A stretch of 64,000 nt of DNA from a virus (IMGVR_UViG_3300021197_001787:64001-128000), one strand, 5' to 3'. Positions 35,217 to 47,383 are shown, counted from the stretch's first letter. Notes: generated by a model not told the origin, from the letters alone. A program made the numbers and translations.

Positions 35217-35395
35217 ACAAGTGAAAGATGTTGACTACATTCGGTTAGTGGCTCTGGTTCGTTGGTCCACAAAACTTTAACGTCACGGTTGCCACTAAAC
35301 TTTCCTGTCTCGATAATCAAGCCAACATGGACAGATTGACCTTTACGCCAGCGTGGGCGCTGATACCAATACGTCACCAGATCACCGACTTTCAT
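35195..35395 (-). CDS. Small SH3-like family protein
   Basis: MKVGDLVTY..VGLII..VLW. Confidence 0.7.
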   Translation of the reverse strand: MKVGDLVTYWYQRPRWRKGQSVHVGLIIETGKFSGNRDVKVLWTNEPEPLTECSQHLSLVDKPLTT

Positions 35396-35615
35396 ATTCA
35401 ACCTTGGTTGTCTTCACATAGAAAATAACCTTATCGCCCGGTTTAACGTGCTTAAGCTGTCTTTTATTGAGCTTTACCCACATTGCGGAGTCTGGTGCAT
35501 TTACAATCTCAACAGGAACCATCCGATCAAAGTACATTTGATCATCCAGCACGGTGCCGTTCATCTTGGCGCGTGTTGCGCAGCCAACTAAAAGCAGTGG
35601 AACTATAAATCTCAT
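35382..35615 (-). CDS. Hypothetical lipoprotein-like protein
   Basis: LLLVGC; ends YESR*. Confidence 0.55.
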   Translation of the reverse strand: MRFIVPLLLVGCATRAKMNGTVLDDQMYFDRMVPVEIVNAPDSAMWVKLNKRQLKHVKPGDKVIFYVKTTKVEYESR

Positions 35616-35954
35616 TTATGCAACCTTGGCCCTTTGAGCATCGACATGCTTACACTTACGCCGCCAGCCAAAACCGGGACACGTACACGTCCACGTGCCG
35701 CCGTTGTCGGTCACGGTATAAGTGTTGCCAGTGCTGCCTTGGACCTCGTATGAGGTAACGTCAGCCGGTTGTGCCGGTGCTTCTCGTTCCTCAACGATCA
35801 TATACTCACCAACCCGGTCAAGTGTTAGGGTTTCTGGCACTTCAACCCAATGTTGACCAGACACAGCCCACTTCTGGCCGGCCCTATCGGTGTAAAGCAT
35901 TGGGTTCATACTGACCACAATAGGCAGCGTTTTATTCTTCGTTGTCATCTTCAT
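35616..35954 (-). CDS. SWIM zinc-finger protein
   Basis: YTV..WTCTCPGF..CKH. Confidence 0.75.
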   Translation of the reverse strand: MKMTTKNKTLPIVVSMNPMLYTDRAGQKWAVSGQHWVEVPETLTLDRVGEYMIVEEREAPAQPADVTSYEVQGSTGNTYTVTDNGGTWTCTCPGFGWRRKCKHVDAQRAKVA

Positions 35955-36195
35955 TCTCCGTGGAAGGTCTATGGTTGAGGTAAATATCGGTCATGTCTTT
36001 TGACCAGAAGTCGTCGTACCCTGATACATAATAAGGGCTGATCTCAACTGGATTGCGCTCAAAAAAGTCCTCCAGCATTGAAACGATTTCTTCCATACGA
36101 AGTTCACGAGCAGACTTGTTTTCGTCGGCTTTGGCTTCAGCCATGGCCTTCTTCTTCTCGCGGTATTCGTCAAGGTTTACTATCTCTCCCATCAA
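35932..36195 (-). CDS. Hypothetical protein
   Basis: MGEIVNLDEYR start. Confidence 0.6.
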   Translation of the reverse strand: MMGEIVNLDEYREKKKAMAEAKADENKSARELRMEEIVSMLEDFFERNPVEISPYYVSGYDDFWSKDMTDIYLNHRPSTENEDDNEE

Positions 36196-36527
36196 AACGG
36201 CCTGCTATCGCTCATTGGTGAACACTCCCAAACCTTCGGGTGCATGATCACCGGGCCACCAGTTGTGTACTTGGCGAGATTCACGTGACAGGAAGTTGTC
36301 ATAGAATGAAAGCCGTTGGCTGGTGCAGTGAAGTCGGCGATGATGCAGACACCAGCCGGAGTACGTTCGCCGATCTTTAAGTCATAGCTGAATAGCTCCG
36401 CGCTTCCATTTGGATATGATATGCTTGTTAAAGAACACCTGTGATTACGCGCACTTACGCCGTTCCTCCAAGCATCAAGCACGCCGTCATTTGTGCGAGA
36501 CTTACCATAGATCCCCAGCGCGTTCAT
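36192..36527 (-). CDS. Hypothetical protein
   Basis: ATGA-coupled. Confidence 0.6.
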   Translation of the reverse strand: MNALGIYGKSRTNDGVLDAWRNGVSARNHRCSLTSISYPNGSAELFSYDLKIGERTPAGVCIIADFTAPANGFHSMTTSCHVNLAKYTTGGPVIMHPKVWECSPMSDSRPF

Positions 36528-36712
36528 GCTTCACCTGCTATACGCGGTAGTGCTGAGAGCGTTGTCAGGAAAATATCCCGCATAACTTCGTTTTCCTCTT
36601 CAGCCAGTTGCGAGGCTACCATCAGGCAAGTGATGACATTCTCACATGTTTCGCGACTCTCATCCATTGGTGTTAGTGACCCTGTGACGTTGGGAACATT
36701 ACTTTCAAACAT
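36524..36712 (-). CDS. Hypothetical protein
   Basis: Promoter and RBS. Confidence 0.6.
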   Translation of the reverse strand: MFESNVPNVTGSLTPMDESRETCENVITCLMVASQLAEEENEVMRDIFLTTLSALPRIAGEA

Positions 36713-36734
36713 TTTATCTCCTTTCTATACTATA

Positions 36735-36777
36735 AATATAGCATTAAATAGTTTAATCGTCAAGCATTAAGTTGTCA
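36735..36777 (-). promoter_or_regulatory. Cassette promoter (distal half-site degenerate)
   Basis: TGACA N9 TTGACG .. TATATT. Confidence 0.7.
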
Positions 36778-36966
36778 AGACTCGCTGACAACTTCTAGCC
36801 ATGGTTCAGGCTCCCAGTCTACTTTACCTGAACCACCTATCCACATTATACCTATTTGTGGCCGTGTGGTAGAAATGGCTTTAGGGTGCCTGTCCACTAC
36901 AATGCCGACAAGCCCCGTGTCATGCGTGTGCATCTTCACCAGATCGCCTTTTTTAATGCGCTTCAT
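36775..36966 (-). CDS. Small SH3-like family protein
   Basis: IKKGDLVKM..VGIVV..IMW..LEVVS. Confidence 0.7.
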   Translation of the reverse strand: MKRIKKGDLVKMHTHDTGLVGIVVDRHPKAISTTRPQIGIMWIGGSGKVDWEPEPWLEVVSES

Positions 36967-37241
36967 CGCTCACCTCTAAAGATACGGTCAGCGAAACGCT
37001 TTGCGTTGCGAAGGTTATACATGTCGCCAATATCTTTGACTTGATTAGATTCCTCATCATTCAGATGATTAACAGATTCCTTCATAAACTTGCGGAGCAT
37101 CTTGATAAACTCAATCTTCCCGAACGATTCTTTGTGATATGAGCCGGTACTCACATACTTTTCATGCATGATACGCACCATCTTTAGTGCGTCGTTGATG
37201 CCTTCTCGGTCGTCGGAGTCTATTACGATTGTCATTTTCAT
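36963..37241 (-). CDS. Hypothetical protein
   Basis: ATGA-coupled. Confidence 0.6.
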   Translation of the reverse strand: MKMTIVIDSDDREGINDALKMVRIMHEKYVSTGSYHKESFGKIEFIKMLRKFMKESVNHLNDEESNQVKDIGDMYNLRNAKRFADRIFRGER

Positions 37242-37252
37242 TGTTTAGCCTT

Positions 37253-45828: not shown

Positions 45829-45872
45829 AAGATAACACCAATACCCTCAACCGTCAAGTTAAGAGAATGTCA
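45829..45872 (-). promoter_or_regulatory. Cassette promoter (variant)
   Basis: TGACA N10 TTGACG N17 TATCTT. Confidence 0.65.
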
Positions 45873-46079
45873 GCAAACGAGTTGGATGTGTTCTTTTCTT
45901 ACAGTCTCAGGGTTTCGGCGTTTACCATTTCCAAACCAAAAGATAATCCTCCAGCCCGCGTCTTCGGAGTCTTCCGGGGGCAATAGGCCGGTCATCCCGG
46001 GATGGGCTTCGTATGCGATAATAATCCCCATTGATTGTCCGGGCCGCGCGGTGCATTGTACCAAATCACCTACTTTCAT
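45870..46079 (-). CDS. Small SH3-like family protein
   Basis: MKVGDLVQC..GIII..IFW. Confidence 0.7.
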   Translation of the reverse strand: MKVGDLVQCTARPGQSMGIIIAYEAHPGMTGLLPPEDSEDAGWRIIFWFGNGKRRNPETVRKEHIQLVC

Positions 46080-46082
46080 TAT

Positions 46083-46286
46083 CTACCTGCCCGCATTTCG
46101 TGCGTCTTGCATGCTGCCCACGTACTGATATGCACCCTTGTTATACAATGGGGCTGTACACTTCTTTCTATGCTCGGAGGTTTCTTGTGCGTACTGCTCA
46201 CCACACTCCAAACAATGCTCATACCCCAAAGCTCTACGCTTGGGGTTGAACTCTTCGCCGCAGTCAAAACATTGTGGCCAATCCAT
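46083..46286 (-). CDS. TraR/DksA-type C4 zinc-finger protein
   Basis: CFDCGEEFNPKRRALGYEHCLEC. Confidence 0.7.
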   Translation of the reverse strand: MDWPQCFDCGEEFNPKRRALGYEHCLECGEQYAQETSEHRKKCTAPLYNKGAYQYVGSMQDARNAGR

Positions 46287-46308
46287 CTCTTCTCTCCTTA
46301 CCCTTATA

Positions 46309-46351
46309 AGATAACGCCGCTGTCGCTAAACGTCAAGTCAAAAAGATGTCA
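46309..46351 (-). promoter_or_regulatory. Cassette promoter (variant)
   Basis: TGACA N6 TGACT abutting TTGACG N17 TATCTT. Confidence 0.65.
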
Positions 46352-46546
46352 AGACGCACTGATGATTTTAACATTTGAACGGTGAATCCACCAAATATAA
46401 TCAGTAGGCATACCGTTCACTCTTCTGGATCTAAAGTATCTGACACCTATTTGTGTACCTGTTTTTCTAATATCGACGATGTAACCAAGCCGGTTCTTTC
46501 CGTTCGGTATCTCAACAATGTCGCCAATCTTATAATCAATAATCAT
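46349..46546 (-). CDS. Small SH3-like family protein
   Basis: YKIGDIVEI..LGYIVDI. Confidence 0.7.
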   Translation of the reverse strand: MIIDYKIGDIVEIPNGKNRLGYIVDIRKTGTQIGVRYFRSRRVNGMPTDYIWWIHRSNVKIISAS

Positions 46547-46916
46547 CTAACTCAACGCCATTGGTAATGGCGTCAATATATCCGGCGGGTACTTTTACAA
46601 CAAGTGTGCGCCACCCCATCCACTTGGGCCATATCTCATTGAAAGGGAAGGATGGATGTTGCGATTCAATAGTAGAAGCAACCTCATCCATTTCTATCTG
46701 TACCTCTAAATGATTGCCACCATCATCCGAGTTTGCGATTACTTCAAAACGTCCATCAAAATAGTTTGAAATATGTACTAACATTTCGTTAATAGCTGCC
46801 TGCTTTTCTGCCTTTTCCCCGTTGAAAAAAATGTTAGCCATGTCTAATCCCCCTATTAGTAAATAAGCATCAAAAAACGATTTAACTTTTTCAAACAAAT
46901 GTACCATATAAATCAA
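46536..46916 (-). CDS. Hypothetical protein (start uncertain)
   Basis: ORF track. Confidence 0.55.
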   Translation of the reverse strand: MIYMVHLFEKVKSFFDAYLLIGGLDMANIFFNGEKAEKQAAINEMLVHISNYFDGRFEVIANSDDGGNHLEVQIEMDEVASTIESQHPSFPFNEIWPKWMGWRTLVVKVPAGYIDAITNGVELDDY

Positions 46917-47098
46917 TCTACTTTTTGTATGGGTACAATAAAATACTTGTTAAATCTATATGTTTTGTCAGAGCCGAAAAACATAATAGTATACTCGCCG
47001 TTCTCGTTAATCTCTCCAACTACGACAGCATTGCGATTTTTAGGCATGCCCTCTTCGTGGACGCCATCTTTCAATGTAACCAAGTCACCGACTCTCAC
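46913..47098 (-). CDS. Small SH3-like family protein
   Basis: GTG start MRVGDLVTL. Confidence 0.7.
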   Translation of the reverse strand: MRVGDLVTLKDGVHEEGMPKNRNAVVVGEINENGEYTIMFFGSDKTYRFNKYFIVPIQKVD

Positions 47099-47285
47099 TA
47101 ATAACCTCCAGCTTTCCAGAGTCAACCCACCAAAGTTCTCCGTCATTAAATATAACTTGCGCTGATGTTGTGTCATGCCCTGTCTTAGAGATTTGAACCA
47201 CCAAGCCATGCTCTCTACGTGGATCAGCCTCAAACACATCTCTCTCCAGCGCACTTTCAAACTTTACTAAATCGCCGACTTTCAT
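47085..47285 (-). CDS. Small SH3-like family protein
   Basis: MKVGDLVKF..EVISESR*. Confidence 0.7.
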   Translation of the reverse strand: MKVGDLVKFESALERDVFEADPRREHGLVVQISKTGHDTTSAQVIFNDGELWWVDSGKLEVISESR

Positions 47286-47383
47286 TGCAGTATCATCCAG
47301 AAAATAGACGAAAAAATGTAGTAACTACAATAGATAAACAATGCATCAAAGAAAGTTCTAATCAAAAAACTACACACTTTCAC
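47282..47383 (-). CDS. 33-aa membrane peptide
   Basis: MKVCSFLIRTFFDALFIYCSYYIFSSIFWMILQ; coupled at both ends. Confidence 0.55.
   Translation of the reverse strand: MKVCSFLIRTFFDALFIYCSYYIFSSIFWMILQ

What the first reader, a model, noticed from the sequence alone, without database searches (positions are those of the whole stretch)
35382..47383. Dual-frame 14-nt junction that is both the stop of one gene and the start of the next
Seen: ten overlaps of exactly 14 nt (35382-35395, 41621-41634, 41799-41812, 41953-41966, 42128-42141, 43990-44003, 44864-44877, 45054-45067, 47085-47098, 47370-47383), consensus RTG-MAA-GTN-GGT-GA. It reads M(K/Q)VGD in the downstream frame and (E/A)SR* in the upstream frame, which explains the recurring ESR*/ASR*/ESW* ends. 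Five paralogues are chained this way at 42283-41443 and further chains lie at 45474-44578 and 47552-46913. Two non-family genes (43518 MQLD.., 47282 MKVC..) start in such junctions, and 41443 ends in an orphan junction remnant (AGTCGGTGA). Inference: the junction acts as a self-compatible joint. Recombination there can add, delete or swap whole genes while keeping frames and translational coupling intact, like an accordion.
Basis: partly seen in the sequence, partly recalled or inferred. Interest (0 to 1): 0.8.

Follow-up and report, generated by a model that had tools for sequence, protein, structure and literature searches.

The report
Stop/start overlap that shuffles phage genes
In an uncultured 194-kb marine phage, dozens of tiny KOW/SH3-like genes are chained by a conserved 14-base stop/start overlap, and related phages differ by whole genes gained, lost or swapped at exactly that overlap, so it is a natural in-frame joint for shuffling genes.

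Summary
Eight of the ten overlaps are canonical: RTG-MAA-GTN-GGT-GA, with TGA inside the Gly-Asp codons. Two are off-consensus, with TAA or TAG stops. Each junction follows a GGAGGT Shine-Dalgarno site 5 nt upstream, so the "LEV(I/V)SESR*" tail is the next gene's initiation region read in another frame.

The genes form a 28-member family of 55-70 aa five-strand SH3/KOW-like barrels with no Pfam or PHROG family. The genome is a 194,231-bp IMG/VR phage record. In relatives, 416 of 650 family starts have exactly this overlap.

- Among 36 contigs carrying the first gene of the window's five-gene chain, I found about 20 chain layouts, for example g1-g3-g5-x1 and g1-g2-x7-g5-x1. The switch always falls inside the junction.
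- Near-identical contigs differ by one-gene indels with 16-40 nt of junction microhomology, and by gene-body swaps between two junctions.
- The "orphan remnant" at 41443 is an intact junction plus a sixth gene in relatives.

Adjacent paralogues are no more alike than random family pairs, so this is not a recent tandem duplication.

The closest known system is PeSL-mediated modular shuffling in T4-type phages. This is a coding, intra-operon variant of it. Translational coupling is untested. The scan had already noted this junction in overlapping windows of the same genome, not on other DNA.

The parts
41443..42283 (-). Five-gene chain g1-g5 of the KOW/SH3-like mini-protein family. The genes are linked by four 14-nt overlaps at 42128-42141, 41953-41966, 41799-41812 and 41621-41634.
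   Evidence: ORFs and junction sequences. Relatives carry subsets and supersets of this chain.
41438..41456 (-). Orphan junction remnant at the end of g5. It reads AACCCAAGTCGGTGATCT, with the start codon decayed, and is fused directly to the CTTGACATT box of the next promoter cassette.
   Evidence: L244 and L224 have an intact ATCA-ATGCAAGTAGGTGA junction here, followed by a sixth gene.
42284..42358 (-). Early-promoter cassette heading the five-gene chain: TTGACA-type boxes, then TATATTATA, then GAAAGGGAGAG Shine-Dalgarno site.
   Evidence: The same cassette type also sits at 41361-41440, 44164-44230, 35125-35200 and 33030-33118.
44578..45474 (-). Four-gene chain. The overlaps are 45283-45305 (23 nt, because Gly is GGC and there is no TGA), 45054-45067 (14 nt) and 44864-44877 (14 nt).
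46913..47552 (-). Chain made of a family gene (47552-47370), an off-consensus 14-nt junction with a TAG stop (47370-47383), a 33-codon T-rich ORF, a family gene (47285-47085), a canonical junction (47085-47098) and a family gene (47098-46913).
35382..35395 (-). Canonical junction between a non-family lipoprotein-like gene (35615-35382, tail KVEYESR*) and a family gene (35395-35195).
43990..44003 (-). Off-consensus 14-nt overlap (GTGCAGTTGGATAA, TAA stop) between family gene 44163-43990 and a 161-aa non-family gene (44003-43518). The Shine-Dalgarno site GAGGTG sits at the usual spacing.
   Evidence: The arrangement is conserved in L158.
33419..47552 (-). Early, hyperplastic region holding 21 of the family members listed. 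They lie in operons behind repeated promoter cassettes, interspersed with small unrelated genes, a tRNA-Leu and a MoxR-type ATPase / VWA-DUF2201 gene pair.
   Evidence: Family HMM search, Pfam scan, tRNA scan and gene-order maps of relatives.

Best explanation
The junction is a composite translational joint built from the two conserved ends of one mini-protein family.

Anatomy. The last beta-strand of the upstream protein (L-E-V-I/V) is encoded by cTG-GAG-GTn. That sequence is also the Shine-Dalgarno site GGAGGT of the next gene. Five bases later comes the start codon. The first strand of the next protein (K/Q-V-G-D-L-V) is encoded by MAA-GTN-GGT-GAY. GGT-GA contains the out-of-frame TGA that ends the upstream gene. 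ATGA supplies a stop for the other alternate frame.

Why it recombines. The gene bodies have diverged to about 19% identity. This 35-40 nt block is therefore the only nucleotide homology shared by the paralogues. Short-homology recombination, or replication slippage between neighbouring copies, resolves there.

Why products stay intact. Both the stop of one gene and the Shine-Dalgarno site and start of the next lie inside the homologous block. Every crossover therefore yields intact, separately terminated genes with unchanged initiation regions. Arrays gain, lose and swap whole genes like an accordion.

Shown: the anatomy, the fold, the dominance of the 14-nt form, the whole-gene indels and swaps with junction breakpoints, and the many array architectures.

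Inferred: the enzymology (the phage has a RecA/UvsX-like gene), translational coupling, and any selective value of the shuffling.
For: Anatomy:
- Junction sequences with GGAGGT at -11 to -6.
- AlphaFold2 model with pLDDT 88. It is a five-strand barrel with strand 1 at residues 6-9 (LVRV, following MKVGD) and strand 5 at 53-57 (LEVLS).
- Foldseek top matches are NusG/Spt5 KOW domains, NdhS, Tudor and PWWP domains and chains of ribosome structures, with query TM-scores of 0.6-0.76 but no match at E <= 0.001.
- A family profile hits the NusG KOW domain at E = 0.0024.

Generality:
- 416 of 650 distinct family starts in IMG/VR relatives have exactly a 14-nt overlap, and 100 have ATGA.
- Family-to-family junctions are 14 nt in 223 of 255 cases. 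In the subset of loci not selected by the junction pattern the figure is 50 of 61.
- None of 1,092 family ORFs carries two family domains.

Nucleotide-level conservation beyond the protein:
- Val is GTC in 69% of overlap junctions and 49% of other starts, against 20% background.
- Gly is GGT in 73% of starts even where no overlap exists, against 31% background.

Recombination:
- Between contigs 93-99.9% identical there are one-gene or multi-gene indels with 16-40 nt of junction microhomology: L161/L198 176 nt, L101/L106 175 nt, L045/L106 330 and 197 nt, L060/L146 670 nt.
- There are also body swaps between two junctions: L045 vs L017/L056, and L161/L198 vs L162.
- Breakpoints are enriched in junctions, p about 1e-13.
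- Window gene g1 (90-94% nt identity across contigs) sits in at least 6 upstream contexts and is followed by at least 15 different downstream neighbours. Homology ends at the ATG and just after GGTGAYYTGGT.
- Chain architectures are listed.
- Junction pairs inside the window share exact runs of up to 20 nt.
- A RecA/UvsX-like gene lies at G000:146487-147305.

Not a recent duplication: adjacent members are no more alike than random family pairs, 0.19 vs 0.18 identity, permutation p = 0.37.
Against: - No reads were available. Some short alleles between near-identical contigs could be assembler collapse across 20-40 nt repeats. One contig, 3300038301_000548, is always the short allele. Only two deletions have the short allele in two independent assemblies.
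- For clearly non-family upstream genes (100 aa or more), the 14-nt and ATGA/TAATG forms are about equally common, 42 vs 38 of 96. The 14-nt form is not required for joining.
- Four of 17 events have no junction breakpoint and use promoter cassettes or other sites.
- Coupling, expression and protein function are untested.
- No cultured relative exists.
Confidence: 0.8

Rival explanations
1. The junction is kept by selection for its recombination role: an evolvability device that diversifies a set of host-directed mini-proteins. Excised cassettes might even move as small circles, as proposed for PeSLs.
For: - Synonymous sites of the motif stay biased even where no overlap exists: GGT 73% vs 31% background, GTC 49% vs 20%.
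- There are many architectures built from a shared cassette pool.
- One contig, L238, carries g1 twice.
- PeSL mini-circles are a precedent (PMC2839356).
Against: - The bias can equally come from shared descent or homogenisation of the block by the crossovers themselves, or from constraints on translation initiation.
- Cassette order is largely preserved across architectures. That pattern fits deletion and unequal exchange better than free insertion of circles.
- No circles can be seen in assemblies.
Confidence: 0.2
2. The overlap is only a passive by-product of tandem duplication of one gene. The junction has no continuing role, and arrays are stable.
For: - Family-to-family junctions are far more uniform (223 of 255 at 14 nt) than junctions after other genes. 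Copying a whole unit would give this result.
Against: - Arrays differ between relatives by whole genes at the junctions.
- The same cassette has at least 15 different downstream neighbours.
- Neighbours are not each other's closest paralogues.
- Non-family genes also end in the junction.
Confidence: 0.04
3. The apparent indels and swaps are metagenome assembly artefacts: graph loops or chimeras at the repeated 20-40 nt junction.
For: - Short alleles are each seen in one assembly for four of six deletions.
- Contig 3300038301_000548 is short at three sites.
- Repeats of 36-40 nt could confuse assembly steps that use small k-mers.
Against: - Architectures differ between lineages that are 8-25% diverged in the shared genes (g1 92%, g3 89%, g5 79% nt), so these are not variants of one population.
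- The layout g1-g3-g5-x1 is found in two assemblies, L236 and L244. The layout g1-x6-g2-g3-g5-x1 is also found in two, L225 and L240.
- Swaps put two unrelated gene bodies between 99%-identical flanks, and one allele is seen in two assemblies.
Confidence: 0.05
4. The junction is a recoding site. A +1 shift at NGG-TGA would fuse neighbouring genes into multi-KOW polyproteins.
For: - A +1 shift at the stop enters the downstream frame at Asp-Leu-Val (read directly from the sequence).
- Multi-KOW proteins exist, for example Spt5.
Against: - The Shine-Dalgarno site lies about 17 nt before the stop, not about 3 nt as in the RF2 gene prfB (recalled from the literature, not tested here).
- There is no slippery codon.
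- The junctions show no RNA structure (z from -0.4 to +1.2).
- None of 1,092 family ORFs is a natural two-domain fusion.
Confidence: 0.02

Closest known systems
PeSLs (promoter-early stem-loop cassettes) that mediate modular shuffling in hyperplastic regions of T4-type phages (Arbiol et al. 2010, PMC2839356; Comeau et al. 2014, PMC4122927)
   Same: - A short conserved expression signal repeated at gene borders in a hyperplastic early region is the preferred crossover site.
- Near-identical phages differ by insertion, deletion and replacement of small genes flanked by the repeats.
- Recombinants stay viable because each cassette carries its own expression signals.
- The window also has PeSL-like promoter cassettes, which serve as the other class of breakpoint.
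   Different: - PeSLs are intergenic, about 100 bp long, and made of a terminator stem-loop, a sigma-70-type promoter, a Shine-Dalgarno site and a start.
- The junction here lies inside operons and is coding on both sides.
- It has no promoter and no stem-loop and is only about 35-40 nt long.
- It contains the upstream stop as well as the downstream start.
- It is tied to one protein family.
The 'linker' idea in the modular theory of phage evolution (Susskind and Botstein 1978), and the short conserved boundary sequences discussed for lambdoid phages. Both are recalled from the literature and were not checked here.
   Same: Conserved sequences at gene borders are proposed to direct homologous exchange of whole genes.
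   Different: - In lambdoid phages such linkers were mostly not found. Mosaic joints there are largely attributed to illegitimate recombination followed by selection.
- Here the linker is explicit, abundant and supported by breakpoints.
Ordinary translationally coupled overlaps of phage and bacterial operons (ATGA, TAATG)
   Same: - The stop of one gene overlaps the start of the next, with the Shine-Dalgarno site inside the upstream gene.
- The same family also uses ATGA: 100 of 650 starts.
   Different: - The overlap is 14 nt, which is unusually long.
- Its sequence is fixed by two conserved protein motifs.
- It is documented here as a recombination site.
KOW / SH3-like barrels (NusG and Spt5 KOW domains, uL24, NdhS, DsrB, DUF2158)
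   Same: - A five-strand barrel of about 55-60 residues with an N-terminal x-V-G-D-x-V strand.
- Weak profile and fold matches.
   Different: - No Pfam or PHROG model is met.
- The proteins are stand-alone.
- The family is hugely expanded in one phage clade.
- Function is unknown.

Membership tests
PeSL regulatory cassettes of T4-type phages | Intergenic position between small genes of a hyperplastic region | tested here: not met
   The junction is a coding/coding overlap inside operons. The region itself is hyperplastic.
PeSL regulatory cassettes of T4-type phages | Contains a sigma-70-type early promoter (-35 and -10 boxes) | tested here: not met
   The 40-nt junction block has no TTGACA or TATAAT-type boxes. 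Such boxes occur only in the separate promoter cassettes at chain heads.
PeSL regulatory cassettes of T4-type phages | Stem-loop terminator upstream of the promoter | tested here: not met
   Eight junction windows of 70 nt fold no better than shuffled sequence, z from -0.4 to +1.2.
PeSL regulatory cassettes of T4-type phages | Shine-Dalgarno site and start codon of the downstream gene at the 3' end of the element | tested here: met
   A GGAGGT-type site lies 5 nt before ATG or GTG.
PeSL regulatory cassettes of T4-type phages | Insertion, deletion and replacement differences between close relatives are bounded by the element | tested here: met
KOW domain (Pfam PF00467) / SH3-like barrel | Match to the Pfam KOW model above its threshold | tested here: not met
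   Only 1 of 97 members matches, at E = 0.003. The window's members match none.
KOW domain (Pfam PF00467) / SH3-like barrel | Five-stranded SH3-like beta-barrel fold | tested here: met
   AlphaFold2 model with pLDDT 88 and five strands. Foldseek query TM-scores of 0.6-0.76 to NusG/Spt5 KOW, NdhS and Tudor domains, although no Foldseek match reaches E <= 0.001.
Translationally coupled overlapping gene pair | Stop of the upstream gene overlaps or abuts the start of the downstream gene, with the Shine-Dalgarno site inside the upstream gene | tested here: met
Translationally coupled overlapping gene pair | Downstream translation depends on upstream translation | not testable with these tools
   This needs reporters or ribosome profiling. 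The only hint is that GTG starts are more common in 14-nt junctions: 45% vs 13% overall, and 26% vs 8% in the subset not selected by pattern.
Programmed +1 frameshift site (RF2 / prfB type) | Shift-prone codon before an in-frame stop, with a Shine-Dalgarno-like stimulator about 3 nt upstream | tested here: not met
   The Shine-Dalgarno site lies about 17 nt before the TGA and the preceding codon is CGG or AGG. None of 1,092 ORFs is a fused form.

The most novel reading that the evidence does not exclude
The junction is a selected 'snap-fit' connector. Its nucleotide sequence, including synonymous sites, is maintained so that a clade of marine phages can exchange and re-deal a common pool of KOW-like early mini-proteins, probably host-takeover or counter-defence factors. 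Exchange would occur both within a genome and between co-infecting relatives, possibly through excised cassette circles. It would be a gene-level analogue of exon shuffling, with built-in frame and expression safety.
Probability: 0.2. Interest if true: 0.85.

Novelty: new variant of a known kind. Interest (0 to 1): 0.66.

Why it matters
This is an unusually clean natural case where one short sequence does three jobs. It ends one gene, starts the next, and serves as the crossover point that re-deals whole genes.

It extends the PeSL idea of modular shuffling from intergenic promoter cassettes to a coding, intra-operon joint. It also revives the old 'linker' hypothesis of phage modular evolution with explicit breakpoints.

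It explains why the C-terminal tails of the family are conserved: they are the next gene's ribosome-binding site. It shows how a large family of tiny accessory proteins can diversify combinatorially in an abundant but uncultured marine phage clade.

In practice it warns annotators and assemblers about junction-bounded copy-number variation. It also suggests a design rule for scarless, frame-safe assembly of small-gene arrays.

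Tried and rejected
- Cultured phage records gave nothing. Megablast of 12 kb hit only tRNA-Leu. tblastn with the 216-aa neighbour and with a family member gave no match. A 40-nt junction query gave only chance-level hits.
- Pfam and PHROGs gave no family for the mini-proteins. The protein atlas returned only 'hypothetical' viral clusters and a weak DsrB look-alike.
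- A literature search for the motif MKVGDLV found 0 papers.
- A search for relatives using the 216-aa gene next to the array found none in IMG/VR.
- An allele census for the L161/L198 deletion found only the two known contigs in IMG/VR and none in the metagenome collection. The assembly-artefact question for that event stays open.
- No contig is near-identical to the window's genome. The closest, L201, has 89% aa identity in one gene and is already heavily rearranged.
- I considered and rejected four readings. A stem-loop or RNA signal at the junction is ruled out. A site-specific nuclease or recombinase target is unlikely because crossover points vary from the Shine-Dalgarno site to GDLV and microhomology ranges from 16 to 40 nt. 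Frameshift polyproteins are contradicted. Recent tandem duplication is contradicted.
- The comparison of Glu frequency in strand 5 with and without a downstream junction (84% vs 54%) is only suggestive, because the 'without' class is contaminated by undetected starts.

Full report
**What is there**

The window is bases 64001-128000 of a single 194,231-bp IMG/VR virus record. CheckV rates it 100% complete, and its GC content is 40.5%. It encodes tRNAs, a tmRNA, PhoH, GroEL and a RecA/UvsX-like protein.

Between window positions 33 and 48 kb all genes are on the minus strand. They are arranged as short operons behind stereotyped early-promoter cassettes. Each cassette has several TTGACA-type boxes, then TATATTATA, then GTATAGAAAGGAGA and the ATG.

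An iterated HMM search finds 28 members of one small protein family in the genome, 26 of them in the window. Members are 55-70 aa long, with the pattern MKVGDLV...G.V...W...LEV(I/V)SESR.

**The observation**

- Eight contain the GGTGA stop, and six of them fit RTG-MAA-GTN-GGT-GA exactly. 41966 has ATC for GTN and 47098 has AGA for MAA.
- 43990-44003 has a TAA stop. Its downstream gene is a 161-aa non-family gene, and the arrangement is conserved in relative L158.
- 47370-47383 has a TAG stop. It is followed by a T-rich 33-codon ORF that may not be a gene.
- The consensus occurs 7 times in the window, against 0.02 expected by chance.

- Every junction is preceded at -11 to -6 by a GGAGGT-type Shine-Dalgarno site. 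The whole conserved tail L-E-V-I/V-S-E-S-R-stop is therefore the downstream gene's initiation region read in frame +2.
- Where Gly is GGC instead of GGT (45305), the upstream ORF simply runs on to a 23-nt overlap.
- When the second codon is AAA, the motif also supplies a stop for the other alternate frame (ATGA). Several members use this.

**What the genes are**

A 97-sequence alignment gives an AlphaFold2 model with mean pLDDT 88. It is a five-strand barrel whose strand 1 is residues 6-9 (LVRV, following MKVGD) and whose strand 5 is residues 53-57 (LEVLS).

- Foldseek matches NusG/Spt5 KOW domains, NdhS, Tudor and PWWP domains and chains of ribosome structures at query TM-scores of 0.6-0.76. 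No match reaches E <= 0.001.
- The family profile hits the NusG KOW domain at E = 0.0024.
- No Pfam or PHROG model is met.

Both halves of the junction therefore encode structural strands. Strand 5 of one protein doubles as the ribosome-binding site of the next. Strand 1 of the next protein carries the stop of the previous one.

**How general it is**

The junction with its Shine-Dalgarno site occurs in at least 119 stretches of IMG/VR contigs. It is absent from 50,697 cultured-phage records.

The neighbouring VWA/DUF2201 gene has more than 80 IMG/VR relatives at 52-86% aa identity. Several lie on contigs of 183-205 kb. In these loci I found 1,092 family ORFs.

- Of 650 distinct starts of the M-x-V-G-x type, 416 have exactly a 14-nt overlap with an upstream ORF of at least 45 aa, and 100 have ATGA.
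- Family-to-family junctions are 14 nt in 223 of 255 cases. In loci not selected by the junction pattern the figure is 50 of 61.
- After clearly unrelated upstream genes (100 aa or more), the 14-nt form accounts for 42 of 96 cases and the 4- or 1-nt forms for 38 of 96.
- No ORF carries two family domains.

Synonymous sites of the motif are strongly biased.

| Codon | In 14-nt junctions | At other family starts | Background in gene bodies |
|---|---|---|---|
| Val = GTC | 69% | 49% | 20% |
| Gly = GGT | 100% | 73% | 31% |

**The test of the interpretation**

*Gene order.* Gene-order maps of 18 relatives show a conserved MoxR-VWA core. Around it, the family genes and the small unrelated genes are extensively reshuffled.

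*Recent events.* An all-against-all comparison of the loci found about 17 distinct indel or replacement events between contigs 93-99.9% identical.

- Nine events have both breakpoints in a junction.
  - L161 vs L198 is a 176-nt one-gene indel with the 20-nt microhomology ATGAAAGTCGGTGATTTGGT.
  - L101 vs L106 is 175 nt with 40 nt of microhomology.
  - L045 vs L106 has two events: 330 nt with 21 nt, and 197 nt with 36 nt.
  - L060 vs L146 is 670 nt with 16 nt.
  - Gene-body swaps between two junctions put unrelated family bodies between 99%-identical flanks.
- Four events have one end in a junction. In at least two of them (L029/L123, L142/L158) the other end lies in a promoter cassette.
- Four events use other sites.
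- Scored automatically, 18 of 44 breakpoints fall in junction windows that cover 2.2% of the bases, p about 1e-13.

*The window's own array.* This is the decisive part. The first gene of the five-gene chain (g1, 42283-42128) is 90-94% identical in nucleotides in several contigs but sits in different contexts. Homology stops at its ATG and just after GGTGAYYTGGT of the next gene.

A metagenome scan with the 3' end of g1 returned 32 contigs. In them g1 is followed by at least 15 different gene bodies or by a promoter cassette. It is preceded by at least 6 different contexts.

I walked each chain through exact 14-nt overlaps and clustered the genes at 60% aa identity or better. This gives about 20 architectures from about 29 cassettes.

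| Contig(s) | Chain |
|---|---|
| window | g1-g2-g3-g4-g5 |
| L237 | g1-x13-g2-g3-g4-g5-x17 |
| L225, L240 | g1-x6-g2-g3-g5-x1 |
| L236, L244 | g1-g3-g5-x1 |
| L224 | g1-g2-x7-g5-x1 |
| L251 | g1-x7-g5-x1 |
| L231 | g1-x13-g5 |
| five contigs | g1-x1 |
| four contigs | g1 alone |
| L238 | g1 present twice |

- Cassette order is largely preserved, which is the accordion pattern.
- Against L244, the shared genes are 92%, 89% and 79% identical in nucleotides. The BLAST segments overlap by 44 and 29 nt at the junctions where g2 and g4 are missing.
In the window the start has decayed, and GGTGATCT is fused to the CTTGACATT promoter box.
- Similar junction fossils fused to a promoter -35 box end the genes at 36775 and 46349.

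**Against the tandem-duplication by-product**

Inside the window, adjacent chain members are no more alike in their bodies than random family pairs: identity 0.19 vs 0.18, permutation p = 0.37. In contrast, junction pairs share exact runs of up to 20 nt. That is the same length as the microhomologies at the observed events.

**Mechanism**

Shown:
- The junction is the preferred breakpoint.
- Recombinants keep separate, intact ORFs.
- Crossover positions vary within the block, from the Shine-Dalgarno site to GDLV. That fits homology-driven exchange, not a site-specific enzyme.

Inferred:
- Exchange by the phage's own recombination system (RecA/UvsX-like gene), or by replication slippage between direct repeats about 170 nt apart.
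- Exchange between co-infecting relatives.
- Translational coupling. GTG starts are enriched in 14-nt junctions, and the junctions show no RNA structure.
- Whether the junction is selected for this role, or is merely the only homology left, cannot be decided here.

**Comparison with the known**

The closest system is PeSL-mediated modular shuffling in T4-type phages (PMC2839356; PMC4122927).

- Shared: a repeated expression signal at gene borders acts as the crossover site. ORFan-sized indels and replacements distinguish close relatives. The shuffling is 'safe'.
- Not shared: the intergenic position, the promoter and the stem-loop.
- New here: the joint is coding on both sides, holds both a stop and a start, and belongs to one protein family.

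The window's promoter cassettes look like the PeSL-type partner, and they also serve as breakpoints.

An earlier scan report on the same genome (e1-5771021) reached a similar reading for a different repeat and named the same paper. Other first-stage notes (e1-5771008, e1-5771007, e1-5770996) described this junction and family in overlapping windows of the same genome.

**Caveats**

- No reads were available, so some short alleles between near-identical contigs may be assembly collapses. The cross-lineage architectures and the swaps do not depend on them.
- Host, expression and protein function are unknown.

**Verdict**

This is a new variant of a known kind of system. Interest is 0.66.

Noticed in passing
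window 11409-11752 (-): ARAGORN calls a phage-encoded tmRNA with tag peptide ANNNNHFESVRLAA. This is unusual for a phage genome.
   Followed up: no
window 32550-32645, 32760-32860, 33030-33125, 35125-35225, 41355-41450, 42284-42358, 44160-44235, 45805-45915, 46280-46352 (-): These are repeated early-promoter cassettes. Their pattern is CTGACATTCTCTTGACAACTTAGTTGTTGAC, a spacer, TATAAT or TATATTATA, then GTATAGAAAGGAGA and ATG. They are 85-97% identical to copies in many relatives. They serve as the second class of recombination breakpoint (L168/L170, L029/L123, L142/L158), which makes them PeSL-like but without an obvious stem-loop.
   Followed up: partly
window 46349, 45870, 36775, 34332, 33419 (gene ends, - strand): Family genes that end an operon often take their TGA stop from the TTGACA or CTGACA -35 box of the next promoter cassette, for example ..GTCTTGA|CATC and ..TTGCTGA|CATT. 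This is a second kind of dual-use stop.
   Followed up: partly
L146 15262-15957 and 16722-16749 vs L148; window 29356-29628 (-): A second small family (MKITK.QLK.., like window gene 29628-29356) also shows replacement and insertion breakpoints exactly at its start codon (ATGAAGATTAC / ATGAAAATCAC). The same principle may apply to other families.
   Followed up: no
window 47282-47383 (-): A T-rich 33-codon ORF (VKVCSFLIRTFFDALFIY..) lies between two family genes. It begins in a decayed junction and ends in the ATGA of the next start. It may be a remnant spacer or a small hydrophobic peptide.
   Followed up: partly
window 60267-61847 (-), 5808-7142 (-): The phage encodes a GroEL-type chaperonin (PHROG 5725, E = 8e-142) and a PhoH-like protein (E = 9e-111).
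   Followed up: no
L167 1600-1816 vs L169 1816-1823: A 223-nt indel between near-identical contigs removes a small gene together with the 3' end of a tRNA-like sequence. It has 8-nt microhomology (TTTACATT) at promoter-like sites, so it is not a junction event.
   Followed up: no
L238 (Ga0066849_10008139): One contig carries the g1 cassette twice in one chain (g1-x18-x3-x19-g1-x4-x5). Duplication or insertion by unequal exchange at junctions would produce this.
   Followed up: no
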